Shown: piece after piece, positions 2,916-21,513 of the stretch | How positions within the stretch are numbered: position 1 is the first letter of the stretch | How the letters are laid out: the number at the start of each line of letters is the position of its first letter | NCBI GenBank assembly: GCA_964424195.1 | Contig: CAYRHT010000001.1 | Location: 70,102 to 134,101 of the forward strand | DNA length: 64,000 nucleotides | From: an uncultured Gammaproteobacteria bacterium | GTDB lineage: Bacteria > Patescibacteriota > Patescibacteriia > UBA1558 > S5-K13 | Direction of reading: 5' to 3' | Position numbers and translations under genes: made by a program | The notes under the pieces: model-generated | Told to the model about the DNA's origin: nothing | The model's input: only the letters and a program-made list of their open reading frames with translations | Databases searched by the model: none

Positions 2916-5900
2916 TTATTTACTCATCTTAGCTAATAATTCTTCAGCTTCGGCTAACTTTTTCTTTTCTTGTTCTACTATTTCAGTAGGAGCATTGTCT
3001 ACGAACTTTTCATTATTTAATTTATTCTCTAGGGACTTGATATATGATCTTAAATTAGCGATTTCTTTCTCATTAGATTTTTTAATATCTACATTTAGAT
3101 ATATTTTAATGTTTGGTAGATGAATTTTAGTATTTAACTTTTCTCCTGTTCTTAGATTTTTAACTCGAGCTAATTTTTCAATAATAGGTGATTGAGTATT
3201 AATTAATTTATCATATTTTTTACTAATAATTAAACATTCGATGAATTTTGCAGGATCAATTTTGTTTTCGTTCTTAAATTTTCTAATCTCAGCAATAATG
3301 TTTTTAATTATTTGAAACTCTTCTTGAGTTTTTTTATCTTCTTTGTATTTTTTAAGTTCTGGCCATCTTTGAATTAACAATAAATCTGTTTTAAAGTTTT
3401 TCCAGATCACTTCAGTGATGTAAGGAGTGAAAGGATGCCAGAGTTTAAGTAAGTTTTGAAGGATGTAGAGTAAAATTTCATCTTTGTCTCCTTCAACTTT
3501 AGCTATTTCTAAATACCAATCAGCTAATTTATTCCAAGTGAAGTCATATAGTTCTTCGCCAGCTGGAGAGAATTGGAATTTATCAATCTTATCAGTAATC
3601 CCAAAAGTAATTTTATCTAACTCATCTAAAATCCATTTATCAGCCAAAGTTTTAACTTTAGGTTTCTTTTCTATTAATTTAACTTCTTCAACGCTAGTTA
3701 ATATATATCTAGATATATTCCAAAGCTTGTTTACGAAGTTTCGATAACCAGCAATTTTTTCATCATAAAGTTTTACATCATTTCCAGGAGTAGAACCAAC
3801 TATCATAGAAAGTCTTAGAGCATCAGCTCCGTAATCTTTAATCATTTCTAGAGGATCAATACCATTACCTAAAGACTTTGACATCTTTCGTCCTTGTTTA
3901 TCTCTTACTAATCCATGTAAATATACGGTATCAAATGGTTTTTCATTTAAAGCATAGGTAGTCATTAAGATCATTCGAGCTACCCAGAAGAAGAGAATAT
4001 CATAACCAGTTTCCATTACAGAATTAGGGTGGAATTCTTTTAAATCTTTAGTTTTGTCTGGTCCACCAAGAGTACTGAAAGTCCATAAACCAGAAGAAAA
4101 CCAAGTATCTAGAGTGTCAGGATCTTGTTTTAATTCTTTGAGTTTATAATGATTGTCAGGAATATCAAAACTTATTGGTTTATCAAAACTAGTTTTATAT
4201 TCTGAAAGTTCAAGAGGACTTTCATTAACCATTAAGCTTCTAATATATCTTATTAAAGTACCATGACAAACTATTAAAATTTTCTTTCCTTTATTATTTT
4301 TAAGAGTTTCTTCTAGAAATATTTCAATTCTCTTTAAAACTTCAGCTGGACTCTCTTCTGAATCACCAGGAATATCATAATTTAATTTGTCTTTTGAATA
4401 ACCAGGATGTTGTTTTTTAAATTTTTCATCTTTTTTAACCCCTTCAAATTCTCCAAATCCTTTTTCAACTAATAGTTTATTTGTTTCTAAAGGTAATTTA
4501 AGGTTTTCGTTTAATATTTCAGCAGTTTGTTTAGCTCTTTTTAGAGGAGAACTTATTATTAAATCATAATTCTCTTTTTTAATTTTTGGTATTAAATCTT
4601 TGATAGCTTGAGTATTCATTTCGTCTAGAGGAGTGTCTTTTTTACCTTGGATTATTTTTTCTTTATTCCAATCAGTTATTCCATGTCTCATGAAAGAAAG
4701 CTTGGTAATATCTTTAGGAACAATTATTTCATCACCTTTATACCAAACTGGAATTCGATGTCCAAACCAAATTTGACGAGAAATACACCAATCTCTAAGA
4801 TTATCCATCCATTGGAAGTAAGTTTTATTAAATCGATCAGGAATAATTTCAATTTCTTTCTTTTTAACTACTTCGGAGGCTAATTGTTTCAGTGTTTTAT
4901 TCTTTCTTTTCTTAATTGGCTTATTTACATTTACAAACCATTGTTCAGAAGGAAGTGGTTCAATTGGAGTTCCACAACGATAGCAAACCGAGAGGTTATG
5001 AACATAATTTTCATCAATCTTTTCAACTAAGCCTTTAGATTTTAATATTTCTACTACTTTTTTACGAGCTTCTTTAACTGGTAAACCAGCTAAATCTCCA
5101 GCAGCTTCAGTCATCTGACCTTCTTTGTTAATAATTTCTTCAATTTTTAAATTATATTTTTGAGCTAATTCATAATCTATCATGGAATGAGCGGGAGTAA
5201 TTGTCATAGCACCAGTTCCCATTTCCATATCTGCAGACATATCAGCAATTACTTGAGTTTTAATTTTTCCGTCTATCCATTCTACTTCAAATTCTTTACC
5301 AACGATATCTTTATATCTCTTATCTTGAGGATGAACAATTATTACTTTATCAGAAAACTTTGTTTCCGGACGAGCTGTTCCAATAACTACTGGACCATAT
5401 TTAAAGTAATAAAAAGGTGATGTTTGTTCTTTGTATTCTACTTCATCGTCAGCTAAGGTTGATTGGCAGTGAGGGCACCAATTTACAACTCTTTTGCCTC
5501 GATAGATAAGAGCATCGTTATACATATCTATAAAAACTTTTTGAACTGCTTTAGTTGATCCTTCATCCATGGTATATCTTTCTCGAGACCAGTCTAAAGA
5601 AGAACCCATCTTTTGAAGTTGTTTTTTAATTACTGTTTTAGATTCGTTTACAAACTTGTCAACTTCTTCTAGAAATTTTTCTCTTCCAATTTGATGACGA
5701 TCAATCCCTTGAGCTTTTAATTTTTTATCCACCACAGTTTGAGTAGCAATCGCAGCATGATCCATTCCTGGTAGCCAAAGAGTCTTATCACCTTTCATTC
5801 GATGATATCGAACCATAAGGTCTTGATAGGCAAGCATAGCAGCGTGTCCAATATGGAGCTGTCCAGTTACATTAGGGGGAGGGAGGACAATAGAGAATGT

Positions 5901-6005
5901 TTCTTTATTTCTATTTGGTAAATTGTCAGGGTTAAAATATCCAGAATTTAACCATTCTGAATAAATGTCATCTTCAAATTTTTTAGCTTCGTATGCCTTT
6001 TTCAT
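2916..6005 (-). CDS. valS: Valyl-tRNA synthetase with an inserted histidine-phosphatase-like domain
   Basis: HIGH motif (PNVTGQLHIGHA), KMSKS motif, editing-domain region, WCISRQIWFGHRIPVWY and DTWFSSGLW blocks. At 1029 aa it is about 150 aa longer than typical ValRS. Confidence 0.93.
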   Translation of the reverse strand: MKKAYEAKKFEDDIYSEWLNSGYFNPDNLPNRNKETFSIVLPPPNVTGQLHIGHAAMLAYQDLMVRYHRMKGDKTLWLPGMDHAAIATQTVVDKKLKAQGIDRHQIGREKFLEEVDKFVNESKTVIKKQLQKMGSSLDWSRERYTMDEGSTKAVQKVFIDMYNDALIYRGKRVVNWCPHCQSTLADDEVEYKEQTSPFYYFKYGPVVIGTARPETKFSDKVIIVHPQDKRYKDIVGKEFEVEWIDGKIKTQVIADMSADMEMGTGAMTITPAHSMIDYELAQKYNLKIEEIINKEGQMTEAAGDLAGLPVKEARKKVVEILKSKGLVEKIDENYVHNLSVCYRCGTPIEPLPSEQWFVNVNKPIKKRKNKTLKQLASEVVKKKEIEIIPDRFNKTYFQWMDNLRDWCISRQIWFGHRIPVWYKGDEIIVPKDITKLSFMRHGITDWNKEKIIQGKKDTPLDEMNTQAIKDLIPKIKKENYDLIISSPLKRAKQTAEILNENLKLPLETNKLLVEKGFGEFEGVKKDEKFKKQHPGYSKDKLNYDIPGDSEESPAEVLKRIEIFLEETLKNNKGKKILIVCHGTLIRYIRSLMVNESPLELSEYKTSFDKPISFDIPDNHYKLKELKQDPDTLDTWFSSGLWTFSTLGGPDKTKDLKEFHPNSVMETGYDILFFWVARMILMTTYALNEKPFDTVYLHGLVRDKQGRKMSKSLGNGIDPLEMIKDYGADALRLSMIVGSTPGNDVKLYDEKIAGYRNFVNKLWNISRYILTSVEEVKLIEKKPKVKTLADKWILDELDKITFGITDKIDKFQFSPAGEELYDFTWNKLADWYLEIAKVEGDKDEILLYILQNLLKLWHPFTPYITEVIWKNFKTDLLLIQRWPELKKYKEDKKTQEEFQIIKNIIAEIRKFKNENKIDPAKFIECLIISKKYDKLINTQSPIIEKLARVKNLRTGEKLNTKIHLPNIKIYLNVDIKKSNEKEIANLRSYIKSLENKLNNEKFVDNAPTEIVEQEKKKLAEAEELLAKMSK
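4161..4712 (-). other. Histidine phosphatase (phosphoglycerate-mutase superfamily)-like domain inserted inside valS, about aa 432-615
   Basis: FMRHGITDWN (the RHG motif) and a downstream ILIVCHGTLIR (second catalytic His), about 180 aa, sit between the ValRS blocks WFGHRIPVWY and DPDTLDTWFSSGLW. Confidence 0.6.
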
Positions 6006-7128: not shown

Positions 7129-7365
7129 TTATAATCTGTATGTTTTTTCATTTCGTAAACGAATAGCATCAATAATTACTTCTTTTTCTTCTAAATGATA
7201 TATTATTCTAAATTTTCCAGACTTAACTCGATAAAAATTAGTATTTTTTATTTTAACAATGTTAAGATTTTTTTTGTTATTACTAATTAATTTTTGGATA
7301 ACAAAAAGAAGTCTCTGACGATCAGACTGACTGATTTTCATTAATAATTTTTGAATTTTATCCAT
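7129..7365 (-). CDS. RelE/ParE-family type II toxin
   Basis: 78 aa. FYRVKSGKFRIIYHLEEKEVIIDAIRLRNEKTY matches the RelE/ParE C-terminal pattern. It abuts the upstream antitoxin gene. Confidence 0.65.
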   Translation of the reverse strand: MDKIQKLLMKISQSDRQRLLFVIQKLISNNKKNLNIVKIKNTNFYRVKSGKFRIIYHLEEKEVIIDAIRLRNEKTYRL

Positions 7366-7605
7366 TTAAGTACTTTTCTTTAATATCTTAACGAGGTCTT
7401 TAGCTTTAATTCCTTTACCTTTATTATCACGAATAGCATCAAAAACAGTGTATTCTTTTTTTTCTAAGTCATCAAGAAAAAGAGGACGAATTTCTAAACT
7501 CTCTCCCTTGTCTTTAATTAAAAAACGATTAGTTTTAAAATTATTTCTCCAACTAGCTGGAATCGTAATTTGACCTTTGGTAGTTGTTTTAGCGATAGTG
7601 TTCAT
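7366..7605 (-). CDS. AbrB/MazE/SpoVT-type antitoxin
   Basis: 79 aa. TKGQITIPASWR looped-hinge swapped-hairpin motif. Its stop codon sits directly before the toxin start. Confidence 0.6.
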   Translation of the reverse strand: MNTIAKTTTKGQITIPASWRNNFKTNRFLIKDKGESLEIRPLFLDDLEKKEYTVFDAIRDNKGKGIKAKDLVKILKKST

Positions 7606-10002: not shown

Positions 10003-10154
10003 AATTTTTCATAATTTTTATTATTAAGTAGTCTCTAATTTATCATAAATAAAGCATTAAATCAATGGTTTGAAGATATTATTTATTAATACAGAACTTT
10101 AAAACTATTATAATGAAGGGAAAAATAATAAATATCAGACGTTTAGCTTAAATT

Positions 10155-10384
10155 GCGCAATTTGACACTTTTTTATATAAAAAATATAGACTATTATAAT
10201 ATTGCCTATTATAGAGAGTTTTACTAATTTTAATTACTGCGCAATTTGACATTTTATAAGAATACCTATATTATTTAGATAGGCATCTATTCGCGCAATT
10301 TGACACTTTTTTATATAAAAAATATAGACTATTATAATATTGCCTATTATAGAGAGTTTTACTAATTTTAATTACTGCGCAATT
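10155..10384 (+). promoter_or_regulatory. Tandemly duplicated 92-bp promoter/operator module (period 138 bp) upstream of the RelA/SpoT-domain gene
   Basis: Copy A 10155-10246 and copy B 10293-10384 are near-identical. Each contains TTGACA-17 nt-TATAGA followed by TATAAT. The palindromic motif (AATT)GCGCAATT occurs four times (10151, 10239, 10293, 10377), overlapping the -35 hexamers. Confidence 0.6.
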
Positions 10385-10404
10385 GAGTAATAAATTTAAA
10401 AAAT

Positions 10405-11469
10405 ATGAAAACAATAAATCCAAAAGAATTTTCAAAATCTAAGACAAACCTAGCTGGAGATCTTTTACGTAATAGTAAAACTTCAGAAGAAGAAAAATAT
10501 AAAGCTTTAACAGTTTTAAGTAATTGGCGAGCCTCTCATAGCTATCCAATGCATGTCTTTAAAAAAAGATTAAAACGAGTTTCCGAAAAGATAGATAAAA
10601 ATTCATTATCCGCTCAAAGATTAAAACGAGTCCCCTCAATCATTAAAAAGTTGAATAGGAGATATAAAAACAATAAAGCAACAATGAAGCTTACTCAAAT
10701 GCAGGATATAGCTGGTTGTAGAGTTATAATGTCTAATATCAAATTAGCACGTGAACTTTATGAAGAGTCTTATATTAAAGGAGATTTAAAACATAAAAAA
10801 GTAAATGAGAAAGATTATATTTCTAAGCCTAAAAATGACGGTTACAGAAGTATTCACTTAGTTTATAGGTATTTAAGTGATAAAGGAAAAAAAGAATATA
10901 ATGGATTATTAGTTGAAATACAAATTAGATCAAAATTACAACACATTTGGGCTACGGCAGTTGAAACGGTTGGTTTTTTTACAGGACAAGCAATAAAATC
11001 AAATGAAGGGGAAAAGGAATGGAATGATTTTTTTAAATTAGTAAGTTCAGCTTTTGCTAAAATGGAGAAATGTCCAATTATATTAGGAACGCCTGATGAT
11101 GAAAAAGAATTATATTCTCTTATAAAAGAAAAAGAAAGAGAATTAAATGTAATTACTAAAATGGAGAGTTGGACTGAATCCATGAAGTTTATTGATAATC
11201 TAAAAAATAAAAAAAATCATCATTTCTTTTTACTTGAATTAGATACTATTCAAGAAAAATTGACCATTTCTACATATTCAAAAAGGCAAGAAGAAAAAGC
11301 AATAAATGCTTATGCTAAAGCAGAAAAAAAAATTTACGGAAGAAAAGAGTATGATGTTGTTTTAGTTGGTGCAGATACTACATCAGACTTAAAAAAAGCA
11401 TATCCTAATTATTTTATGGATACTAAAGAATTTATTAATTATCTCAATAAGATTTTAAATAAATATTAA
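10405..11469 (+). CDS. RelA/SpoT-domain (alarmone synthetase fold) protein with an unknown C-terminal domain of about 160 aa
   Basis: Synthetase-domain motifs DIAGCRVI, GYRSIHLVY and EIQIRSKLQHIWA in the first ~190 aa. No HD hydrolase and no TGS/ACT domains. 354 aa. Confidence 0.75.
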   Translation: MKTINPKEFSKSKTNLAGDLLRNSKTSEEEKYKALTVLSNWRASHSYPMHVFKKRLKRVSEKIDKNSLSAQRLKRVPSIIKKLNRRYKNNKATMKLTQMQDIAGCRVIMSNIKLARELYEESYIKGDLKHKKVNEKDYISKPKNDGYRSIHLVYRYLSDKGKKEYNGLLVEIQIRSKLQHIWATAVETVGFFTGQAIKSNEGEKEWNDFFKLVSSAFAKMEKCPIILGTPDDEKELYSLIKEKERELNVITKMESWTESMKFIDNLKNKKNHHFFLLELDTIQEKLTISTYSKRQEEKAINAYAKAEKKIYGRKEYDVVLVGADTTSDLKKAYPNYFMDTKEFINYLNKILNKY

Positions 11470-11496
11470 CCAAAAAAACGCTTTGAATAAAGCGTT
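11470..11496 (-). terminator. Intrinsic terminator for the minus-strand repeat-protein gene; it also caps the plus-strand gene
   Basis: AACGCTTT-GAAT-AAAGCGTT perfect hairpin. On the minus strand it is followed by a T7 run. Confidence 0.55.
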
Positions 11497-11572
11497 CTGA
11501 GATGGAGCTCCTTAGTAGAGGACGTTAGAACTATTGTGATTGAAGAGAGGGTTGGTTTTGAGTTTTAGATGT

Positions 11573-13708
11573 CTATTTTTTAGGTAGTTCAATTTCCATT
11601 TCAACAATTTTCCATAAATCATTTTCTTTCTTAAAAAAAAGATTGTTTTTCCCTGCTTGATCTATTGTTACGTCTTCACCATCTAAAAAAACTTGAATTT
11701 CACCAACATAGCGAAAATTTGTATCTAGATAATCATAACCTTTTTCAGCTCCTATTAAAAATAATTCTATATCTCTGCCATCTAAATACTCTTCTAATTC
11801 TTCTCTAACTTTTTCAGGATTTTCTTTTAAGGATGCTTGATTTTTCCAAAATTCTTCTCCAACTGATTGATAGAATAATTCTATGTCTCTGTTATTTAGA
11901 GCATCGCTAATAGCTCGAGTAGCCTCTTCTAGCGTTTGATAAGAATTATTTGGGTAATTTGAATTTAATTTACCAGAACCAAGTGGATTGTAACCATTCT
12001 CTACTTCTTCCCCGTCTATATAACCATCACCATCTGAATCAGGATTATTAATATCTGTCCCATAGACAGCTTCATCAGTATCAGATAAGCCATCATTATC
12101 AGTATCTATTGTTACTGCTTCATTTTCAATTTTACTTAAATTTTCATTAGTAATGCCTAGAGATAAACTAGTGAATAAATCCATTAAATTATCCCAGGTC
12201 ACTTCATGTCGTTTACCATTCATATTTACATACCAGATTCGACCATGATCTTCAACTTGTAAAAATAGTTTTCCTAGGTGTTCTTTGCCAAAGTTGTTTA
12301 TTATATTATCGGTTGATAAAGATATTTTATTCAGATTTTCATTGGTAATACCAACAGCTAATCTTTCGAAAAGATTTAGAGCATTAGCAAAAGTAACTTC
12401 ATATTTCTTAGTATCACTAGGATTAACATACCAAACCCGACCATGATCTTCTACGGCTAACAATAATTTACCTTTTAGATCATTAGATAAAATAGTATCT
12501 ATTTCTCCAATTTCGGGTGTAGGTTCAATTTCTATTATTGGTAAATTTATTAGACTATTTATTGTAGATCCAAAATTTTCATCAATTGAGCCATCTGGGT
12601 TAAATTTTATAATAGGGCTTACTATTGGATAAATACTTTTATCATGAACAATACCTCCTCTTAAGACGGCTATTATTTTATCATTTGAGTGCATTTTTAG
12701 ATTATGAATTGCACCATATACATCAATTAGTTTTTCAGCATTAAAACTCTCATCGAGAGAACCATCAACATTTAATCTCACAATGCCAGCTTGTGGAATA
12801 TCATTATGTAAATCAAAAAACCCACCTATTAGTATTTTTCCATCTGATTGAATAGTTATTGTTTCAATCCATTTATTAGTTAGACTCACATTAAAACTTT
12901 CATCAAGAGAACCATCTGAGTTTAGTCTTATAATTTTACCATCACCCATTGAGCCAGTTCCACCAAGTATTATTTTTCCATCTGATTGAACATGTGGAAG
13001 ATAACTGAAATCTTCTGTTTCTTCATAATTAAAACTTTCATCAAGAGAACCATCTGAGTTTATTCTTATAATATAATTTTTAAAAGAATCTCTATCTATC
13101 CAGCTTACTATTATTTTTCCATCTAATTGAAAATATGGGAAACACGCCATACCATTATTTATTGTGGAGTTAAAATTTGTATCAAAGGAGCCATCTGAGT
13201 TTAATCTTGCAATACAATTTTCATCATTTGGACCAACAAAGAATCCGCCCACGATTATTTTTTCATCTGACTGAATATTTAATTTTGTTATAGCACCAGA
13301 AAATCCTTCTCTAGAATTAAAACTTGTGTCAATTGAACCATTTGAATTGAGTCTCACAATCTTACCATGCATATTTTCAATAGTATTATCTGGGCTATCA
13401 TCGACTGATAATAAAATTTTCCCACCTGGTAAAACTATTAGATCATTTACGGAATTAATATCTATACTTGGATTAAATTCTTTATCAAGTGATCCGTCTG
13501 AATTTAATCTCAAAATACCTTTTCGTGCTATATCATTGTATGAAGTAAAAGAACCTCCAACTATTATTTTTCCGTCTGATTGAATGTCCATGGCTTCAAC
13601 ATAATTATCTGCTCCAATTATATCTGTTTCAGCGAAAGATTTATTTATAAAACAAAAAGAAATGAAGATAAGTAATGTAAAAAGTAAAAATACTTTTATT
13701 TTTTTCAT
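11573..13708 (-). CDS. Secreted multi-repeat protein: delta-60-like beta-propeller repeats, a duplicated ~70-aa domain, DxDxDG calcium-loop repeats
   Basis: Signal peptide. At least seven repeats of ...QSDGKIIVGG...I(V/I)RLNSDGSLDESFN... Two copies of L(L/F)L(A/Q)VEDHGR(V/I)WYVN...GITNENL(N/S)KI. TDNDGLSDTDE/DSDGDGYIDGEE loops. Confidence 0.6.
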   Translation of the reverse strand: MKKIKVFLLFTLLIFISFCFINKSFAETDIIGADNYVEAMDIQSDGKIIVGGSFTSYNDIARKGILRLNSDGSLDKEFNPSIDINSVNDLIVLPGGKILLSVDDSPDNTIENMHGKIVRLNSNGSIDTSFNSREGFSGAITKLNIQSDEKIIVGGFFVGPNDENCIARLNSDGSFDTNFNSTINNGMACFPYFQLDGKIIVSWIDRDSFKNYIIRINSDGSLDESFNYEETEDFSYLPHVQSDGKIILGGTGSMGDGKIIRLNSDGSLDESFNVSLTNKWIETITIQSDGKILIGGFFDLHNDIPQAGIVRLNVDGSLDESFNAEKLIDVYGAIHNLKMHSNDKIIAVLRGGIVHDKSIYPIVSPIIKFNPDGSIDENFGSTINSLINLPIIEIEPTPEIGEIDTILSNDLKGKLLLAVEDHGRVWYVNPSDTKKYEVTFANALNLFERLAVGITNENLNKISLSTDNIINNFGKEHLGKLFLQVEDHGRIWYVNMNGKRHEVTWDNLMDLFTSLSLGITNENLSKIENEAVTIDTDNDGLSDTDEAVYGTDINNPDSDGDGYIDGEEVENGYNPLGSGKLNSNYPNNSYQTLEEATRAISDALNNRDIELFYQSVGEEFWKNQASLKENPEKVREELEEYLDGRDIELFLIGAEKGYDYLDTNFRYVGEIQVFLDGEDVTIDQAGKNNLFFKKENDLWKIVEMEIELPKK

Positions 13709-13818: not shown

Positions 13819-13894
13819 TGGAGCGGGTAGGGGGAATCGAACCCCCGTATTCAGCTTGGAAGGCTGACGTAATAAGCCACTATACTATACCCGC
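13819..13894 (-). tRNA. tRNA-Trp (anticodon CCA)
   Basis: Manual cloverleaf: acceptor GCGGGTA/TACCCGC, anticodon stem TCAGC/GCTGA with loop CTTCCAA, T-arm GGGGG-TTCGATT-CCCCC, CCA encoded. Confidence 0.85.
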
Positions 13895-17689: not shown

Positions 17690-18136
17690 CTATATCGTAG
17701 GTTCCCATAAATTTCCATCGACTATTGGTTCACCTTGAATAAGTAACATAAGAGTATTACTAATAATCCAGGCTCCTAAGACGATGGCTAATCCAATAAT
17801 TGCACCAATTAATCTTTTTTTGGCCTTGGAAATTAATTCTTCATTACCACCAGAAGTCATCCATTGAAAGCCAGAAATAATAATCATGACTAGAAATAAT
17901 AAACCGACTAGAGTTAGAGCAATATTAATGATACCAATAATTCGATTAGGTAACGACTGTCCGTTATATAGGCCTGCTTGTTCAGCAAAATCTATTTGTT
18001 TTAAAGCTGCTTGTTCAGCAGCGGTCCATTCAATATCTTCACCTTCTTGAGCTAATAAATTATATCTCGGAACAACCAAAAAACTTAGAATTACGAAGGA
18101 TAAAATTAAAATTTGAAAGTTCTTTTTAGTTTTCAT
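17690..18136 (-). CDS. VirB2/TrbC-like pilin-like small secreted membrane protein, paralog 1 of 8
   Basis: Signal peptide, variable region, then helix-loop-helix ...LFLVMIIISGFQWMTSGGNEELISKAKKRLIGAIIGLAIVLGAW... Confidence 0.6.
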   Translation of the reverse strand: MKTKKNFQILILSFVILSFLVVPRYNLLAQEGEDIEWTAAEQAALKQIDFAEQAGLYNGQSLPNRIIGIINIALTLVGLLFLVMIIISGFQWMTSGGNEELISKAKKRLIGAIIGLAIVLGAWIISNTLMLLIQGEPIVDGNLWEPTI

Positions 18137-18153
18137 TTAATTTATTTATTTAA

Positions 18154-18636
18154 TTAAACTACCATCAATATATAGGTAACAAAACTAGCTAGTGAGTAAG
18201 ACAAAATTACAATTGCTAAACCAATGATAGCATTAGTTATATTCTTTTTAGCTTTACCAATAGTTTCTTCATTACCACCAGCAGTCATCCATTGAAAGCC
18301 AGAAATAATAATCATGATTAAGAACAAAATTCCTAGAAGACTAAGAATGGTTTTAACTATTCTAGCAATAATATCAATAATACCAGATTCTTCAGTTACA
18401 GGAGCATAACCAGCATACATAGTAGCAGTTGCATCAAGTTTTGCTTCAATAAGTTCTTTTGTTGATACTCCTTCTGGCGTTGTGTCTGGAACTGGAAGTG
18501 GTTCTATGCACTCTCCACCGATACATACTCCGCTACTGCTACAATCATTGTTAGATTCACATGCTTGAGCATTAGTAATACCAATGGCGGATAGACTGAG
18601 AAGTATAATTAAAGATATGAAGATTATTTTTTTCAT
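18154..18636 (-). CDS. Pilin-like paralog 2 (Cys-containing variable region)
   Basis: ...ILFLIMIIISGFQWMTAGGNEETIGKAKKNITNAIIGLAIV... A CxxxxCxxxxxCxxxxC cluster follows the signal peptide. Confidence 0.6.
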   Translation of the reverse strand: MKKIIFISLIILLSLSAIGITNAQACESNNDCSSSGVCIGGECIEPLPVPDTTPEGVSTKELIEAKLDATATMYAGYAPVTEESGIIDIIARIVKTILSLLGILFLIMIIISGFQWMTAGGNEETIGKAKKNITNAIIGLAIVILSYSLASFVTYILMVV

Positions 18637-18651
18637 TTTATAATGATTTAT

Positions 18652-19086
18652 TTATAAAGTTTGTCCTATTAAAATATCAACTACAAAGTAAGAAATAGCA
18701 TAGGCGGCAAGTACAATTACTAAACCAATAGTAGCATTTTTAATCCTATTTTTAGCTTTAGTAATGCTTTCTTCATTTCCTCCAGCAGTCATCCATTGAT
18801 AACCACCTATAATGATTAAAATTAAGAAGAATATACCAATTAAAGAAAGAGCAGTTTGAATAATACTACCAATAACAATTTCAACACTAGAGTTAGTATC
18901 ATAGCCAATACCACTGGCAGCATAATTAATTAACATTTCAGAATGTTTTAAATTAGGTAGAATTTCACTACTAGCTGGTTGAGAATTCTCAGTAGGTGTC
19001 ATTTGAGCTAAAACAGGACTGAATATTAAACTTAGTAAGAAAATTAACAGAAAAGAGAATACAATTCTTTTATTTTTTTTAAACAT
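18652..19086 (-). CDS. Pilin-like paralog 3
   Basis: ...FFLILIIIGGYQWMTAGGNEESITKAKNRIKNATIGLVIVLAAY... Confidence 0.6.
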   Translation of the reverse strand: MFKKNKRIVFSFLLIFLLSLIFSPVLAQMTPTENSQPASSEILPNLKHSEMLINYAASGIGYDTNSSVEIVIGSIIQTALSLIGIFFLILIIIGGYQWMTAGGNEESITKAKNRIKNATIGLVIVLAAYAISYFVVDILIGQTL

Positions 19087-19100
19087 ATTAATTTATTTTA

Positions 19101-19505
19101 TTAAACAGTAGATTTAAATAACATTTCTAATATGAAATAGGCTAGAATATAGGCTCCTAAAACAATAATTAATCCGTTAACAGCCATTCTAATTCTTTGT
19201 TTTGCTTTAGTTACTCGTTCTTCATTACCTCCGGAAAACATCCATTCATAACCACCCATAACAATTAAGATTAGAAATACAATTCCAGCAAAACCTAGAA
19301 TTGTACCAACAATTTTATTTCTAGTATCTTGAAGCATCCAAAAAGTTTGCTCTATGCTTTCAGTTGTAGCATATCCTAAATTATTAGCAGTTTCATTATA
19401 ATCTTTTCTAATAGTTTCAATAGCTTCTATAGCTTTAACAGGAACTACAAAGATATTAGATAGAATAATAGTTAATATAAATATTAGAAATATTTTTTTA
19501 AACAT
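19101..19505 (-). CDS. Pilin-like paralog 4
   Basis: ...VFLILIVMGGYEWMFSGGNEERVTKAKQRIRMAVNGLIIVLGAY... Confidence 0.6.
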   Translation of the reverse strand: MFKKIFLIFILTIILSNIFVVPVKAIEAIETIRKDYNETANNLGYATTESIEQTFWMLQDTRNKIVGTILGFAGIVFLILIVMGGYEWMFSGGNEERVTKAKQRIRMAVNGLIIVLGAYILAYFILEMLFKSTV

Positions 19506-19508
19506 AAT

Positions 19509-19964
19509 TTAACTTGTTACAGGAGGAGTTATTAATTCATTTAAAGTTATAAATATTAAATCAACTAAAATATAAGCAGCAACAATAATTATTAATCCAA
19601 TTATGGAACTTTTTATTTTATCTTTAGCTTTTTTAATAGCTTCTTCGTTTCCACCAGAATTCATCCAACCATAACCAGCAAATATTATATTCATTAATAA
19701 TATTATTCCAATAAAGGCTAGAATATAACCAATTAATCTAGCGATAATATCCTGAGGTTCCGCTGCTATTGTTCCTGTTTCATCTGTTAAGCTTGCTTCA
19801 CTAGCACTTTTTATTAAACCATCACGAGCTTCTTTTAAAGCTGAATTAGTCTCTTCTTGAGCATGAATACTGAGAATTGGTGTTAAAACAAAAGAAATAA
19901 TGATAAAACAAAATAGTATCTTTTTTATATTTAGATTCATTTTTTTATAGGTTATATAATTCAC
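19509..19964 (-). CDS. Pilin-like paralog 5
   Basis: ...ILLMNIIFAGYGWMNSGGNEEAIKKAKDKIKSSIIGLIIIVAAY... Confidence 0.6.
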   Translation of the reverse strand: MNYITYKKMNLNIKKILFCFIIISFVLTPILSIHAQEETNSALKEARDGLIKSASEASLTDETGTIAAEPQDIIARLIGYILAFIGIILLMNIIFAGYGWMNSGGNEEAIKKAKDKIKSSIIGLIIIVAAYILVDLIFITLNELITPPVTS

Positions 19965-20013
19965 ATCTCCTCGCTCTATATAATATAAAGCGAGAAATCT
20001 AAACTATATTTTT

Positions 20014-20409
20014 TTAAACACTATCACCTAAAGATCCGCCAATTGTACCAACAACATAGGTAGCAATTGCGTAAGCAGCTAGGATGATAATTAGACCAAC
20101 TACACCGGCTCCTAATAATTTTTTAGCTTCTCCAACTTTTTCTTCATTTCCACCAGAAGTCATCCATTTAAAACCACCAATTAGAATCATAACTAGAGCT
20201 ATCAAGCCTAATAATCCTAAAAGAGTGTTAATTAGATTAACAGCAGTACCTTCTAGGTCTCCTTCTGCTAGATTGGGAACCGTTGGGACCGTAATTCCAT
20301 CTCCAGAATCTGGTGGGGTATTACCGGTTTGAGCAAATACTCCTACAGCAGATACAGCGAAAACGAAAATTAAGACGAAACTAATAATGTTTTTAGTTAG
20401 TTTTGACAT
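20014..20409 (-). CDS. Pilin-like paralog 6
   Basis: ...IALVMILIGGFKWMTSGGNEEKVGEAKKLLGAGVVGLIIILAAY... Confidence 0.6.
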   Translation of the reverse strand: MSKLTKNIISFVLIFVFAVSAVGVFAQTGNTPPDSGDGITVPTVPNLAEGDLEGTAVNLINTLLGLLGLIALVMILIGGFKWMTSGGNEEKVGEAKKLLGAGVVGLIIILAAYAIATYVVGTIGGSLGDSV

Positions 20410-20523
20410 TTTGTTTTTCTTCCTTTCTTTTTCTCATTTAACTTAACGTTAAATGAGCTTAATGTCTCGTTATTTATACGAGCTTTTATTATTTATATAA
20501 ATTATATACAACTTAATATATCT

Positions 20524-20552
20524 ATTATACTATTTTTTATGAAAATTGTATA
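20524..20552 (-). promoter_or_regulatory. Candidate internal promoter (minus strand) in the 155-nt gap before paralog 6
   Basis: Minus-strand TATACA-17 nt-TATAAT. Weak -35 in an AT-rich background. Confidence 0.25.
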
Positions 20553-20564
20553 ATGTTTTAATTT

Positions 20565-20915
20565 CTATTGTTCACCACCCAGTATCTTAAATACTAGATT
20601 TAAGACAGAATAACTAGTAAAGATAGTTACTATTCCTAAAACTGCCCAAATTAAAATTCCCTTTCCCTTTTTAATCTTTTCTTCATTTCCACCAGAGGTC
20701 ATCCAAGTTAAGCCACCGAAAATAAACATTAATAGAGCTAGAGAACCAACTACACCTAGAGCACCTTTAATAATTCTACCAATTAAGTCTGGAATACTTG
20801 TAGTCCCTAGAGGATTTGTTAGTTCATTGTCAGCTGTCGTTGCATAGCATACTCCAATTGAAGAAACAAGTACTAGTGAGATTAGTAAAAAACTAATTAT
20901 TTTTTTGTTTTTCAT
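20565..20915 (-). CDS. Pilin-like paralog 7
   Basis: ...LALLMFIFGGLTWMTSGGNEEKIKKGKGILIWAVLGIVTIFTSY... Confidence 0.6.
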   Translation of the reverse strand: MKNKKIISFLLISLVLVSSIGVCYATTADNELTNPLGTTSIPDLIGRIIKGALGVVGSLALLMFIFGGLTWMTSGGNEEKIKKGKGILIWAVLGIVTIFTSYSVLNLVFKILGGEQ

Positions 20916-20928
20916 TTTAAATATTTTA

Positions 20929-21513
20929 TTATTTAAATTCTGTTGATTCTAATTTGAAGTTTTTATCTTCTTCAGCTTTTTCTATTAAAGTATCTTGAAC
21001 AAAACTTATTATCATATAAGCACCTAAGAAAATAACTAGTCCAATAATAGTTTGAACCATCATGGTTCGAGCACTTTTAATCTTTTCTTCACTGCCTCCA
21101 GAAAATATCATTTGAATACCAGCAATAATAAAGAATAGGAGAGCTACACTACCAACGATTCCTAATAATTGTTTAGAAATACTAATAGCTTTATATACTA
21201 GATCTTTCACATCATATTCACCATATTCTCTAAGGCATTCTTCTATGTTAATTTGTTTATAACATTGAGCACCTTTACACTTTCCATCTTCAAATAGTTC
21301 TTGGTCTTTACAATTTTCTTCTTTAGTTGTCTCCCAATATATTCCATCTTGATTCTTGTCTTTACCTTCTGCATCTCGACATTTAAGGTCTTTAGTGTCA
21401 AATGCTTTACATTCAAAGACATCCTTAGCATAAACAATCGGAATATTAACAACATTTAGAAGGATAGTTATTAAAAAGACTGTTAATATACTAAGTTTTA
21501 TTTTTCTAGACAT
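20929..21513 (-). CDS. Pilin-like paralog 8 (divergent; Cys-rich 90-aa exposed region)
   Basis: ...ALLFFIIAGIQMIFSGGSEEKIKSARTMMVQTIIGLVIFLGAY... The motif is degenerate (SGGSEE). Six Cys in the variable part. The start abuts the stop of the upstream SBP gene. Confidence 0.55.
   Translation of the reverse strand: MSRKIKLSILTVFLITILLNVVNIPIVYAKDVFECKAFDTKDLKCRDAEGKDKNQDGIYWETTKEENCKDQELFEDGKCKGAQCYKQINIEECLREYGEYDVKDLVYKAISISKQLLGIVGSVALLFFIIAGIQMIFSGGSEEKIKSARTMMVQTIIGLVIFLGAYMIISFVQDTLIEKAEEDKNFKLESTEFK

What the first reader, a model, noticed from the sequence alone, without database searches (positions are those of the whole stretch)
10100..11469. RelA/SpoT-domain protein with a novel C-terminal domain, under a tandemly duplicated promoter/palindromic-operator module: toxSAS-like defence or toxin candidate
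The 354-aa protein has only the alarmone-synthetase (nucleotidyltransferase) domain, with motifs DIAGCRVI, GYRSIHLVY and EIQIRSKLQHIWA. It has no HD hydrolase and no regulatory TGS/ACT domains, and adds an unrelated ~160-aa C-terminal domain. That is the architecture of toxic small alarmone synthetases (toxSAS), including fused toxin-antitoxin phage-defence proteins of the CapRel type. Its 400-nt upstream region holds two near-identical 92-bp modules. Each carries TTGACA-17-TATAGA/TATAAT and is flanked by copies of the palindrome (AATT)GCGCAATT, four sites in total, placed over the -35 elements. This looks like tight repressor control of a dangerous gene. No separate antitoxin ORF is evident next to it, which is consistent with a fused design.
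Basis: partly seen in the sequence, partly recalled or inferred. Interest (0 to 1): 0.65.

Follow-up and report, generated by a model that had tools for sequence, protein, structure and literature searches.

The report
CapRel-type fused toxin–antitoxin with phased operator boxes
The gene encodes a known kind of single-protein toxin–antitoxin (CapRel, a tRNA-blocking anti-virus enzyme), but it belongs to an undescribed, highly conserved branch shared by ultra-small archaea and bacteria that always carries its own array of regularly spaced DNA control boxes.

Summary
A 354-aa ORF (10405-11469, +) has only a RelA/SpoT synthetase domain. Upstream lie two 100%-identical 92-bp modules and four GCGCAATT sites.

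The C-terminal half is not novel. The whole protein aligns with CapRel-SJ46 (PDB 7ZTB, E 1.5e-45) and PADLOC PDC-S33 (2e-119). The G-loop Tyr, both ATP-binding Arg residues and the autoinhibitory YXXY motif are conserved.

Three things are new:
- The protein belongs to a tight clade (58-88% identity) found almost only in DPANN archaea and a few CPR bacteria. Ordinary bacterial and viral CapRels are at most about 43% identical.
- In this clade the sensor domain (pseudo-ZFD) is as conserved as the catalytic domain (dN/dS about 0.1).
- The GCGCAATT site is an asymmetric direct-repeat box, (A)CCGCGCAA..ACA, not basically a palindrome. It occurs 2-4 times upstream of nearly every clade member, in both host domains, at spacings matching whole helical turns. 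No conserved regulator gene lies nearby.

The boxes carry TTGACA in bacterial hosts and sit next to the TATA box in archaeal hosts. I infer cooperative binding by an unidentified factor, probably a repressor.

The parts
10405..11469 (+). CapRel-type fused toxSAS toxin-antitoxin gene (354 aa)
   Evidence: ORF. Matches PADLOC PDC-S33 at 2e-119 over residues 6-352, PHROG 4773 at 1.8e-101, and PDB 7ztb_A/9erv_A (CapRel-SJ46) at E 1.5e-45 with query 8-350 against chain 14-369. The AF2 model has pLDDT 88.6 and pTM 0.88. The top Foldseek PDB hits are 7ztb and 9erv, full length, TM 0.66-0.68.
10597..10989 (+). toxSYNTH (RelA/SpoT nucleotidyltransferase) domain, residues ~65-195, with R72, R106, G-loop Y147 and E171-x-Q173-x-R175
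   Evidence: Pfam RelA_SpoT covers residues 71-184. In the alignment R72, R106 and Y147 align with CapRel-SJ46 R79, R116 and Y155; their roles are described in PMC9712102. These residues are invariant in the clade and in 29-30 of 30 distant homologues.
10990..11214 (+). Linker and anchor helices, residues ~196-270; the least conserved part within the clade
   Evidence: AF2 helices at 203-220, 233-247 and 249-259. Mean pairwise identity in the clade is 0.64 here, against 0.78 for the N-terminal part.
11215..11379 (+). Pseudo-zinc-finger domain (antitoxin/sensor), residues ~271-325: three strands plus one helix, no Cys ligands
   Evidence: AF2 elements E274-280, E285-291, H293-310 and E316-322. 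The region aligns with CapRel-SJ46. Pairwise identity is 0.76 in the clade against 0.31 in ordinary CapRels.
11401..11412 (+). YXXY autoinhibition motif (Y333-P-N-Y336)
   Evidence: Aligns with CapRel-SJ46 Y352-P-N-Y355; its role is described in PMC9712102. Invariant in the clade. In the distant set, position 333 is Y in 26 of 30 and F in the other 4; position 336 is Y in 30 of 30.
10155..10167 (+). Box 1, GCGCAATTTGACA. Only here is the site embedded in a 14-bp palindrome (10150-10163).
   Evidence: Box consensus from 132 sites in related loci.
10239..10251 (+). Box 2, GCGCAATTTGACA, 84 nt after box 1
10293..10305 (+). Box 3, GCGCAATTTGACA, 54 nt after box 2
10377..10389 (+). Box 4, GCGCAATTGAGTA, 84 nt after box 3 and 28 nt before the ATG. 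It is followed by AAATTTAAAAAAT, which resembles the proximal box plus TATA of the archaeal copies.
10155..10246 (+). 92-bp module, copy 1 (box 1 to box 2), containing TTGACA(10162-10167)-17-TATAGA(10185-10190) and TTTATA-17-TATAAT(10172-10200)
10293..10384 (+). 92-bp module, copy 2 (box 3 to box 4), 100% identical to copy 1, with the same promoter-like elements shifted by 138 nt
   Evidence: The relative L003 has the same four-box layout (spacings 96/55/84) but non-identical modules. The layout is therefore ancestral and the exact identity here is recent.
10246..10274 (+). Third promoter-like element, TTGACA-17-TATTAT (11/12 matches), starting in box 2
11475..11498 (-). Hairpin between the convergent genes. 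It is terminator-like for the minus-strand DUF5122 gene; on the plus strand the stem is not followed by a T run.

Best explanation
Protein. The gene encodes a CapRel-family fused toxin-antitoxin. [quoted passage not shown] It is held inactive in cis by the C-terminal anchor and pseudo-ZFD region, whose YPNY (YXXY) motif plugs the ATP site. Binding of a trigger protein to the pseudo-ZFD releases the toxin.

Clade. This copy belongs to a distinct, strongly conserved clade that lives in DPANN archaea and has reached CPR bacteria, including this genome, by horizontal transfer. It travels as a one-gene cassette together with about 250 nt of upstream DNA.

Upstream region. The upstream DNA carries four same-orientation boxes, (A)C(C/T)GCGCAA(T/A)(T/A).GACA, spaced 84, 54 and 84 bp apart (8, 5 and 8 helical turns). 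All four therefore lie on one face of the helix. I infer that a sequence-specific DNA-binding factor binds them cooperatively and controls transcription. Repression is the most likely mode, because in bacterial hosts the box contains the -35-like TTGACA, and in archaeal hosts boxes lie just upstream and downstream of the TATA box.

Shown versus inferred. Family membership, conserved residues, the clade, purifying selection and the existence, specificity and phasing of the boxes are shown. The enzymatic activity, the autoinhibition, the trigger, the antiviral role and the identity and sign of the regulator are inferred.
For: Family membership:
- Full-length sequence homology to CapRel-SJ46 (E 1.5e-45).
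- Both this protein and CapRel-SJ46 hit the same PADLOC model, PDC-S33 (2e-119; 6.3e-86).
- A confident AF2 model has CapRel structures 7ztb and 9erv as its best, full-length matches.
- The functional residues defined in PMC9712102 are all present: A70, R72, R106, Y147, V319, L320, A332, Y333, Y336.
- It is a single ORF with no partner gene.

Clade:
- 53 species-representative loci encode proteins 58-84% identical, nearly all labelled DPANN. After that, identity drops to 43% or less, apart from one 51% hit.
- Host domain was checked through neighbouring genes. An A-type ATPase and aIF5A mark archaeal hosts; tig, TsaE, RuvC, DnaN, a PBP and DnaX mark bacterial hosts.
- In an NJ tree the bacterial-host copies nest inside archaeal ones.
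- dN/dS is about 0.1 in both halves of the protein, with dS 0.8-1.7.

Boxes:
- Forward GCGCA occurs at 13.9 per kb in the 200 nt upstream, against 0.285 per kb per strand elsewhere in 407 kb of the loci.
- 46 of 51 loci have 2-4 boxes, and two of the remaining five carry a GCCCA variant.
- Spacing classes are 32, 54, 74, 84, 96, 108, 117 and 128 bp, about 3, 5, 7, 8, 9, 10, 11 and 12 turns. Rayleigh R is 0.81-0.84 at a period of 10.6-10.8 bp.
- In archaeal copies the TATA box sits at -29/-30 with a box at about -44, and often another at about -12.
- The boxes are identical between the window and L003, while the spacers have diverged and dS is about 0.9.
- The boxes also appear in four further loci fetched independently.
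- No comparable box pairs occur elsewhere in the flanks or in the window.
- No neighbouring gene is conserved; the best candidate is shared by 4 of 52 loci.
Against: - No biochemical or genetic data exist for any member of this clade.
- The pseudo-ZFD is as conserved as the catalytic domain here. That is unlike phage-sensing CapRels, whose C-terminal region is their least conserved part (PMC9712102), and it weakens the antiviral-sensor reading.
- The window neighbourhood is housekeeping genes (tig, tsaD, tsaE, ruvC), not a defence island.
- No close clade member was found on viral contigs.
- Sigma-70-like matches are not enriched over shuffles.
- The binding factor is unknown.
- The sequences in the phasing statistics are phylogenetically related and so not independent. 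The nine distinct spacing classes do still fit integer numbers of turns.
Confidence: 0.72

Rival explanations
1. Autoregulated cassette. The CapRel-like protein itself binds the boxes and represses its own promoter, as type II antitoxins do. This would explain why both the boxes and the pseudo-ZFD are unusually conserved in this clade.
For: - The boxes travel with the gene across two domains of life with no linked regulator gene.
- The boxes are found only at this gene in all the DNA sampled.
- Conserved boxes and a conserved pseudo-ZFD occur together in this clade, and both are absent from ordinary CapRels.
- The pseudo-ZFD is topologically like a zinc-finger transcription factor (PMC9712102).
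- Transcriptional autoregulation is common among type II toxin-antitoxin systems (PMC11782079).
Against: - DNA binding has not been reported for CapRel or for toxSAS antitoxins.
- The pseudo-ZFD carries no net positive charge (about -1.5 in the clade).
- The clade has no extra domain compared with CapRel-SJ46.
- CapRel is described as a monomer, whereas phased arrays suggest an oligomeric binder.
Confidence: 0.13
2. Not an antiviral sensor. The protein has the CapRel fold and chemistry, but in these episymbionts it acts as a conserved growth or dormancy switch. The conserved pseudo-ZFD would then sense a conserved cellular or host-derived ligand rather than a fast-evolving virus protein.
For: - Both halves are under strong purifying selection (dN/dS about 0.1).
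- The pseudo-ZFD to N-terminal identity ratio is 0.97 in the clade against 0.67 in ordinary CapRels.
- Contexts are housekeeping and variable, not defence islands.
- The clade is absent from viral contigs.
- One CapRel is already known to sense a phage protein in complex with host FtsZ (abstract of PMC13423816).
Against: - Every characterised fused CapRel is a phage-defence protein.
- Capsid proteins can themselves be highly conserved, so a conserved sensor does not exclude a viral trigger.
- Some related loci lie beside defence-associated ATPases of the AAA_14/DUF4143 type, seen in 4 loci.
Confidence: 0.2
3. Housekeeping small alarmone synthetase (RelQ/RelP type) that makes (p)ppGpp, with the C-terminal part serving as an oligomerisation domain.
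For: - The RelA_SpoT domain is present.
- RelQ/RelP structures match residues 68-191 at about E 1e-11.
Against: - The NCBIfam YjbM model scores 60.8 bits against a cut-off of 320.
- The CapRel match is full length and about 34 orders of magnitude better in E-value.
- The C-terminal half aligns with the CapRel antitoxin, including YXXY.
Confidence: 0.02
4. The upstream repeats act as RNA, as a type III-like repeat antitoxin, a decoy or a leader, or else they are a functionless recent duplication.
For: - Repeats upstream of a toxin gene recall ToxI-type arrays (general knowledge).
- The 92-bp copies are 100% identical, so the duplication or homogenisation is recent.
Against: - Spacing in whole helical turns points to recognition of double-stranded DNA.
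- The boxes flank the TATA box in archaeal copies, so some are not transcribed.
- There is no Rfam match and no stable fold in the leader (z = 0.31).
- The four-box layout is conserved in L003 and across the clade, so it is not an accident.
Confidence: 0.04

Closest known systems
CapRel-SJ46 (Salmonella phage SJ46; PDB 7ZTB, 9ERV) and the fused CapRels CapRel-Ebc and CapRel-Kp
   Same: - One polypeptide with the same order of toxSYNTH, anchor helices, pseudo-ZFD and C-terminal helix.
- Full-length alignment (E 1.5e-45, about 32% identity).
- Conserved R79/R116/Y155 equivalents, interface residues and the YXXY motif.
- The same PADLOC model, PDC-S33.
   Different: - Hosts are DPANN archaea and CPR bacteria. 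The literature read here describes CapRel only in bacteria and phages.
- The pseudo-ZFD is as conserved as the catalytic domain rather than being the most variable part.
- A clade-specific array of helically phased upstream boxes is present, and is absent from 21 more distant homologues.
- The gene is chromosomal in housekeeping contexts, not on a prophage.
Unfused CapRel/ATcapRel, PhRel/ATphRel (mycobacteriophage Phrann gp29/gp30) and FaRel2/ATfaRel2
   Same: - toxSAS toxin chemistry.
- Antitoxins homologous or structurally similar to the pseudo-ZFD, with YXXY-based neutralisation (PMC9712102, PMC11782079).
   Different: - Those are two-gene operons. Here toxin and antitoxin are fused, and no neighbouring small ORF exists.
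RelQ/RelP (SAS1/SAS2) housekeeping small alarmone synthetases
   Same: - The catalytic RelA/SpoT fold.
   Different: - Only residues 68-191 match.
- The score is far below the NCBIfam YjbM cut-off.
- Those enzymes have no CapRel-type C-terminal half.
GRel/Pag1B of PANGU systems (toxSAS plus a nucleoid-associated protein partner)
   Same: - A toxSYNTH domain followed by a C-terminal regulatory domain (bioRxiv 10.64898/2026.04.06.716658).
   Different: - PANGU is bicistronic with a NAP gene and makes (pp)pGpp.
- Here there is no partner gene, and the C-terminal half is CapRel-like.
Operator arrays of type II toxin-antitoxin promoters, and phased multi-site arrays of oligomeric regulators such as Lrp/FFRP (the Lrp comparison is from general knowledge, not tested)
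   Same: - Several sites overlapping the core promoter.
- Spacing of about 3 helical turns (32 bp) and multiples, which places all sites on one DNA face.
   Different: - The box sequence, (A)CCGCGCAA..ACA, matches no operator known to me.
- The sites are direct repeats, not palindromes.
- The same array works in front of an archaeal TATA box and a bacterial -35/-10 context.
- The binder is unknown.

Membership tests
Fused CapRel (toxSAS toxin-antitoxin) | RelA/SpoT-type toxSYNTH domain with no HD hydrolase, TGS or ACT domains | tested here: met
   Pfam finds only RelA_SpoT, at residues 71-184 (4e-20).
Fused CapRel (toxSAS toxin-antitoxin) | G-loop tyrosine (Y155 in SJ46) and adenine-coordinating arginines (R79, R116) | tested here: met
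   Y147, R72 and R106 align with them. They are invariant in the clade and in 29-30 of 30 distant homologues.
Fused CapRel (toxSAS toxin-antitoxin) | C-terminal anchor plus pseudo-ZFD region homologous to the CapRel/PhRel antitoxin, in the same polypeptide | tested here: met
   phmmer aligns query 8-350 with 7ztb_A residues 14-369. Foldseek gives a full-length match to 7ztb and 9erv. PADLOC PDC-S33 and PHROG 4773 match over the full length.
Fused CapRel (toxSAS toxin-antitoxin) | YXXY neutralisation motif and docking-interface residues (A77, V338, L339, A341, A351) | tested here: met
   The motif is Y333-P-N-Y336. A70, V319, L320 and A332 are conserved. The A341 equivalent is G322, a small residue.
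Fused CapRel (toxSAS toxin-antitoxin) | No separate antitoxin gene | tested here: met
   No conserved neighbouring gene in 52 loci. Only repeat-generated ORFs of 21-54 aa lie upstream.
Fused CapRel (toxSAS toxin-antitoxin) | Toxic N-terminal domain, tRNA CCA pyrophosphorylation, and activation by a phage protein that binds the pseudo-ZFD | not testable with these tools
   Inferred from homology only. The mechanism is described for CapRel-SJ46 in PMC9712102.
Fused CapRel (toxSAS toxin-antitoxin) | Variable C-terminal sensor region (typical of the family, not strictly defining) | tested here: not met
   In the clade, pseudo-ZFD identity is 0.76 against 0.78 for the N-terminal part. In ordinary CapRels the figures are 0.31 and 0.46. 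dN/dS for the C-terminal half is about 0.08-0.15 among the closer relatives.
PADLOC candidate system PDC-S33 | Match to profile PDLC04999 | tested here: met
   2e-119 and 397 bits over profile positions 5-343 of 349. CapRel-SJ46 hits the same model at 6.3e-86.
RelQ/RelP housekeeping SAS | Score above the NCBIfam equivalog cut-off; roughly 210-aa single-domain architecture | tested here: not met
   NF053588 scores 60.8 bits against a cut-off of 320. The protein is 354 aa and has a CapRel-type C-terminal half.
PANGU type I (GRel toxSAS + NAP) | Adjacent gene for a nucleoid-associated protein | tested here: not met
   The neighbours are tig and a DUF5122 protein. No partner gene is conserved in the clade.
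Type III toxin-antitoxin (RNA repeat antitoxin) | Head-to-tail tandem RNA repeats followed by a terminator, upstream of the toxin gene | tested here: not met
   The boxes are dispersed at spacings of 32-128 bp that match whole helical turns and flank the TATA box. There is no structured RNA and no Rfam hit.

The most novel reading that the evidence does not exclude
The DPANN/CPR CapRel clade is a self-contained, one-gene cassette that moves between domains of life and carries its own portable regulated promoter. The phased GCGCAA..ACA boxes would be bound by the CapRel-like protein itself, or by a very widely shared factor. That would give a fused toxin-antitoxin transcriptional autoregulation in both archaeal (TATA-flanking) and bacterial (-35-embedded) settings. 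The unusually conserved pseudo-ZFD would then be constrained by this second, DNA-related or self-sensing role rather than by a viral arms race.
Probability: 0.15. Interest if true: 0.78.

Novelty: new variant of a known kind. Interest (0 to 1): 0.5.

Why it matters
CapRel is the textbook case of a bacterial immune protein that directly senses a viral capsid. In the papers read here it is described only in bacteria and their phages.

A large, tightly conserved CapRel branch in DPANN archaea and CPR bacteria would matter for three reasons:
- It would extend tRNA-pyrophosphorylating toxSAS immunity, or growth control, to archaea.
- It would give a rare example of one gene, with its regulatory DNA, functioning in both domains of life.
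- It would offer a simple test system for how a cis-regulatory array can work with both archaeal and bacterial transcription machinery: four boxes and one gene.

The conserved sensor domain also suggests a conserved trigger, which could be found by co-folding or co-expression screens.

Tried and rejected
- Regulon search in metagenomes. I scanned metagenome contigs for CCGCGCAA-N23-25-CCGCGCAA to find other genes carrying the boxes, such as an autoregulated regulator.
- Regulon search in viral contigs. The same idea with CGCGCAAAA-N18-26-CCGCGCAAAA gave 13 hits, all unrelated coding repeats or GC-rich DNA.
- Close clade members on viral contigs. None were found; the only full-length relatives were at most 42% identical.
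- Conserved neighbouring gene (regulator or antitoxin). None was found; the best candidate is shared by 4 of 52 loci.
- Additional box pairs elsewhere. None turned up in the roughly 470 kb of flanks or in the 64-kb window.
- RNA explanations. Rfam gave nothing above chance, the leader fold has z = 0.31, and there are no meaningful small ORFs.
- Charge test for DNA binding by the pseudo-ZFD. Its net charge is about -1.5, so the test gives no support.
- Composition anomaly marking an island. None was seen. A tRNA-Gly lies 2.3 kb away, but no integrase was seen among the called genes.
- Literature. No paper combines DPANN or Patescibacteria with toxSAS or CapRel, and none mentions PDC-S33. Operator binding by toxSAS antitoxins is not reported.
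- Model conformation. The roughly 10 Å rmsd to the open crystal form is merely consistent with a different domain arrangement.
Full report
**1. The observation**

The ORF at 10405..11469 (+) encodes 354 aa, and its ATG is the first start codon after a stop. The quoted motifs are present: DIAGCRVI at residues 101-108, GYRSIHLVY at 146-154 and EIQIRSKLQHIWA at 171-183. Pfam finds a single domain, RelA_SpoT, at residues 71-184 (4e-20). There is no HD, TGS or ACT domain.

The 402-nt gap to the divergently transcribed trigger-factor gene holds two 92-bp direct repeats, 10155-10246 and 10293-10384. They are 100% identical and start 138 nt apart. GCGCAATT occurs five times in the 64-kb window, all between 10151 and 10384. 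That is four sites, the first being read on both strands. Shuffles give 0.45 expected, and none of 100 reached five.

Some details need correcting:
- Only site 1 is a true palindrome (AAATTGCGCAATTT).
- TTGACA overlaps the last T of the site at sites 1-3. Site 4 is followed by GAGTAA.
- A third, better promoter-like element, TTGACA-17-TATTAT (11/12), sits in the 46-nt spacer.
- Sigma-70-like matches as a class are not enriched here: 13 found against 10.9 +/- 3.4 expected.

**2. What the protein is**

The C-terminal half is not novel. Three lines of evidence place the whole protein in the CapRel family.
- Sequence. phmmer against all PDB chains gives CapRel-SJ46 (7ztb_A, 9erv_A) at E 1.5e-45, aligning query residues 8-350 with chain residues 14-369. 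Housekeeping RelQ/RelP enzymes match only residues 68-191, at about 1e-11.
- Profiles. The protein matches PADLOC PDC-S33 over its full length (2e-119) and PHROG 4773 (1.8e-101). CapRel-SJ46, rebuilt from the alignment, hits the same PADLOC model (6.3e-86). PDC-S33 is therefore the CapRel family.
- Structure. An AlphaFold2 model (pLDDT 88.6, pTM 0.88) finds 7ztb and 9erv as its best PDB matches over about 365 columns (TM 0.66-0.68). RelQ/RelP match only the N-terminal half.

The NCBIfam RelQ (YjbM) model scores 60.8 bits against a cut-off of 320.

The functional residues defined experimentally for CapRel-SJ46 (PMC9712102) map as follows in the alignment:

| CapRel-SJ46 | This protein |
|---|---|
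| A77 | A70 |
| R79 | R72 |
| R116 | R106 |
| Y155 (G-loop) | Y147 |
| V338 | V319 |
| L339 | L320 |
| A341 | G322 |
| A351 | A332 |
| Y352-P-N-Y355 | Y333-P-N-Y336 |

R72, R106, Y147, V319, L320, Y333 and Y336 are invariant in 39 clade sequences, and A70 and A332 are conserved there. All are near-invariant in 30 distant homologues. No antitoxin-sized ORF lies nearby.

**3. The clade**

The 120 best database hits are 66-88% identical. Those that carry names come from Patescibacteria and from Aenigm-, Nano-, Woese- and Nanohalo-archaea.

Among one genome per species, 53 loci encode proteins 58-84% identical, almost all labelled DPANN. The next best are ordinary bacterial CapRel-like proteins at 30-43%, with one at 51%.

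I checked the host domain through neighbouring genes:
- Archaeal hosts: an A/V-type ATPase A subunit (L005) and aIF5A (L034).
- Bacterial hosts: trigger factor, TsaD, TsaE, RuvC and NusB in this window, DnaN in L009, and a PBP plus DnaX in L246.

The window itself lies on a 952-kb contig, consistent with a CPR bacterium. In an NJ tree the clade is monophyletic on a long stem, and the bacterial-host copies nest inside archaeal ones. The tree has no support values, so this only suggests transfer from archaea to CPR bacteria. Close clade members were not found on viral contigs.

The conservation is not a recent sweep. dS is 0.8-1.7 and dN/dS is about 0.1 in both halves of the protein.

The pseudo-ZFD behaves differently from ordinary CapRels:

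| Set | Pseudo-ZFD pairwise identity | Catalytic region pairwise identity |
|---|---|---|
| DPANN/CPR clade | 0.76 | 0.78 |
| 30 ordinary bacterial/viral CapRel-like proteins | 0.31 | 0.46 |

The published statement is that the C-terminal region is the least conserved part (PMC9712102). None of the CapRel or toxSAS papers I read mentions archaea, DPANN or CPR.

**4. The upstream boxes**

I aligned the upstream regions of the related loci. The window's GCGCAATT is one variant of a family-wide, asymmetric box, roughly (A)AC(C/T)GCGCAA(A/T)(A/T)n(G/A)AcA. It always has the same orientation as the gene (position counts).

- Enrichment. Forward GCGCA occurs at 13.9 per kb in the 200 nt upstream, against 0.285 per kb per strand in the other 407 kb of the same loci.
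- Prevalence. 46 of 51 loci have 2-4 copies. Two of the other five carry a coordinated GCCCA variant.
- Replication. Four further loci fetched independently also have the boxes.
- Spacing. Centre-to-centre spacings fall into classes of 31.9, 53.6, 73.7, 84.4, 96.3, 108.4, 117 and 128 bp. At 10.6 bp per turn these are 3.0, 5.1, 7.0, 8.0, 9.1, 10.2, 11.0 and 12.1 turns. Rayleigh R is 0.81-0.84 at a period of 10.6-10.8 bp, and 0.72-0.74 when each distinct spacing is counted once.
- The window. Its spacings of 84, 54 and 84 bp fit 8, 5 and 8 turns.
- Archaeal copies. A TATA box (TTTAAATA) lies at -29/-30 from the ATG, which suggests leaderless mRNA. One box lies at about -44 and often another at about -12.
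- Bacterial-host copies. The box variant contains TTGACA or TTGATA. The same variant also occurs in archaeal relatives L005, L007, L008, L010 and L017. TTGACA is therefore part of the box, and possibly co-opted as a -35 element.
- Age of the layout. L003 (84% protein identity, dS about 0.9) has the same four-box layout (spacings 96, 55, 84). Its boxes are perfectly conserved but its spacers have diverged and its modules are not identical. The four-box layout is therefore ancestral and under selection, and the exact 92-bp identity in the window is a recent homogenisation.
- Cassette limits. Homology between loci ends at the stop codon and just upstream of the first box. The mobile unit is the gene plus about 250 nt of upstream DNA.
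- Specificity. No neighbouring gene is conserved; the best candidate is shared by 4 of 52 loci. The boxes occur nowhere else in the flanks or the window. Twenty-one more distant homologues lack them.

**5. How it most likely works**

By homology, which is inference, the protein sits in an autoinhibited state with the YPNY motif blocking the ATP site. Binding of a trigger protein to the pseudo-ZFD opens it. The toxSYNTH domain then pyrophosphorylates tRNA 3' ends and halts translation, as shown for CapRel-SJ46 (PMC9712102).

Transcription is controlled through the box array. Three things together indicate cooperative binding of a sequence-specific protein to double-stranded DNA: strict sequence conservation, a single orientation, and spacing in whole helical turns. 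The boxes overlap the -35-like hexamers here and flank the TATA box in archaea, which points to repression. Both steps are inference.

The binder was not identified. Because the boxes travel with the gene across domains without a linked regulator, autoregulation by the protein itself is an attractive idea. It has no positive support, however. DNA binding by toxSAS antitoxins is not reported, and the pseudo-ZFD is not basic.

RNA-level explanations are unlikely. There is no Rfam match, no stable fold in the leader (z = 0.31), and some boxes lie upstream of the TATA box.

**6. Verdict**

The finding is real and the toxSAS/CapRel reading is correct, but the protein is a member of a known family and its C-terminal domain is known.

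Three things go beyond the known. First, there is a large archaeal/CPR clade. Second, its sensor domain is under strong purifying selection. Third, a clade-specific, helically phased box array is carried with the gene into both archaeal and bacterial promoter contexts.

I rate it a new variant of a known kind, of moderate interest. The main open questions are the identity of the box-binding factor and of the trigger.

Noticed in passing
window 2916-6005 (-): A 1029-aa valyl-tRNA synthetase carries a histidine-phosphatase domain (His_Phos_1, 2.9e-37, residues 438-601) inserted inside the class I catalytic domain (also in the precomputed hits).
   Followed up: partly
window 7129-7605 (-): Two small adjacent genes lie between tsaD and tsaE. 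The 78-aa product has a weak ParE_toxin hit (22.1 bits against a cut-off of 23). The 79-aa upstream partner has no Pfam hit. Together they look like a type II toxin-antitoxin pair.
   Followed up: partly
window ~17690-21470 (-), = L001 17286-21065: An array of at least eight tandem paralogous genes of 116-194 aa, all hitting PF18895 (T4SS_pilin); the last runs off the fetched locus.
   Followed up: no
window 11573-13708 (-): The convergent neighbour is a 711-aa protein with an N-terminal hydrophobic stretch (a possible signal peptide, judged by eye), six DUF5122 beta-propeller repeats and a bacterial TSP3 repeat. It shares the hairpin at 11475-11498 with the CapRel gene. A tRNA-Gly gene lies just beyond it at 13819-13894.
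   Followed up: no
L027-L051 and other archaeal loci, upstream of the gene: The archaeal copies have TTTAAATA at -29/-30 from the ATG, which implies leaderless transcripts. The distal boxes are often followed by a second TATA-like element (TTTATAC), so two tandem promoter modules may be a general feature of the clade.
   Followed up: partly
L041 and L053, upstream of the gene: In these two loci all boxes read CCGCCCAA instead of CCGCGCAA. This is a coordinated change of every box in a locus, as expected if the boxes co-evolve with one binding factor.
   Followed up: no
L007, L012, L042, L043 (near the gene); L005 7502-9475; L011 3490-4044: Four loci have an AAA_14/DUF4143 ATPase near the gene. 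L005 has a 657-aa neighbour that looks by eye like an Hsp90/MORC-type ATPase. L011 has a 184-aa neighbour about 1 kb upstream that looks by eye like an Lrp/AsnC-type regulator (sequences). Neither of these two was scanned.
   Followed up: no
L231 and L234 (viral contigs), around the pattern match: The direct repeat AACCGCGCAAAAGTGTGTGA occurs twice, 33 nt apart, in 48%-GC viral contigs. It resembles the box and its 3-turn spacing, but the context is unrelated.
   Followed up: no
L241 (1.53-Mb contig) and L243 (1.93-Mb contig): Close clade members (76% and 70% identity) with intact box arrays sit on contigs of 1.5-1.9 Mb. That is larger than expected for DPANN or CPR genomes. The host range may therefore be wider than these two groups.
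   Followed up: no
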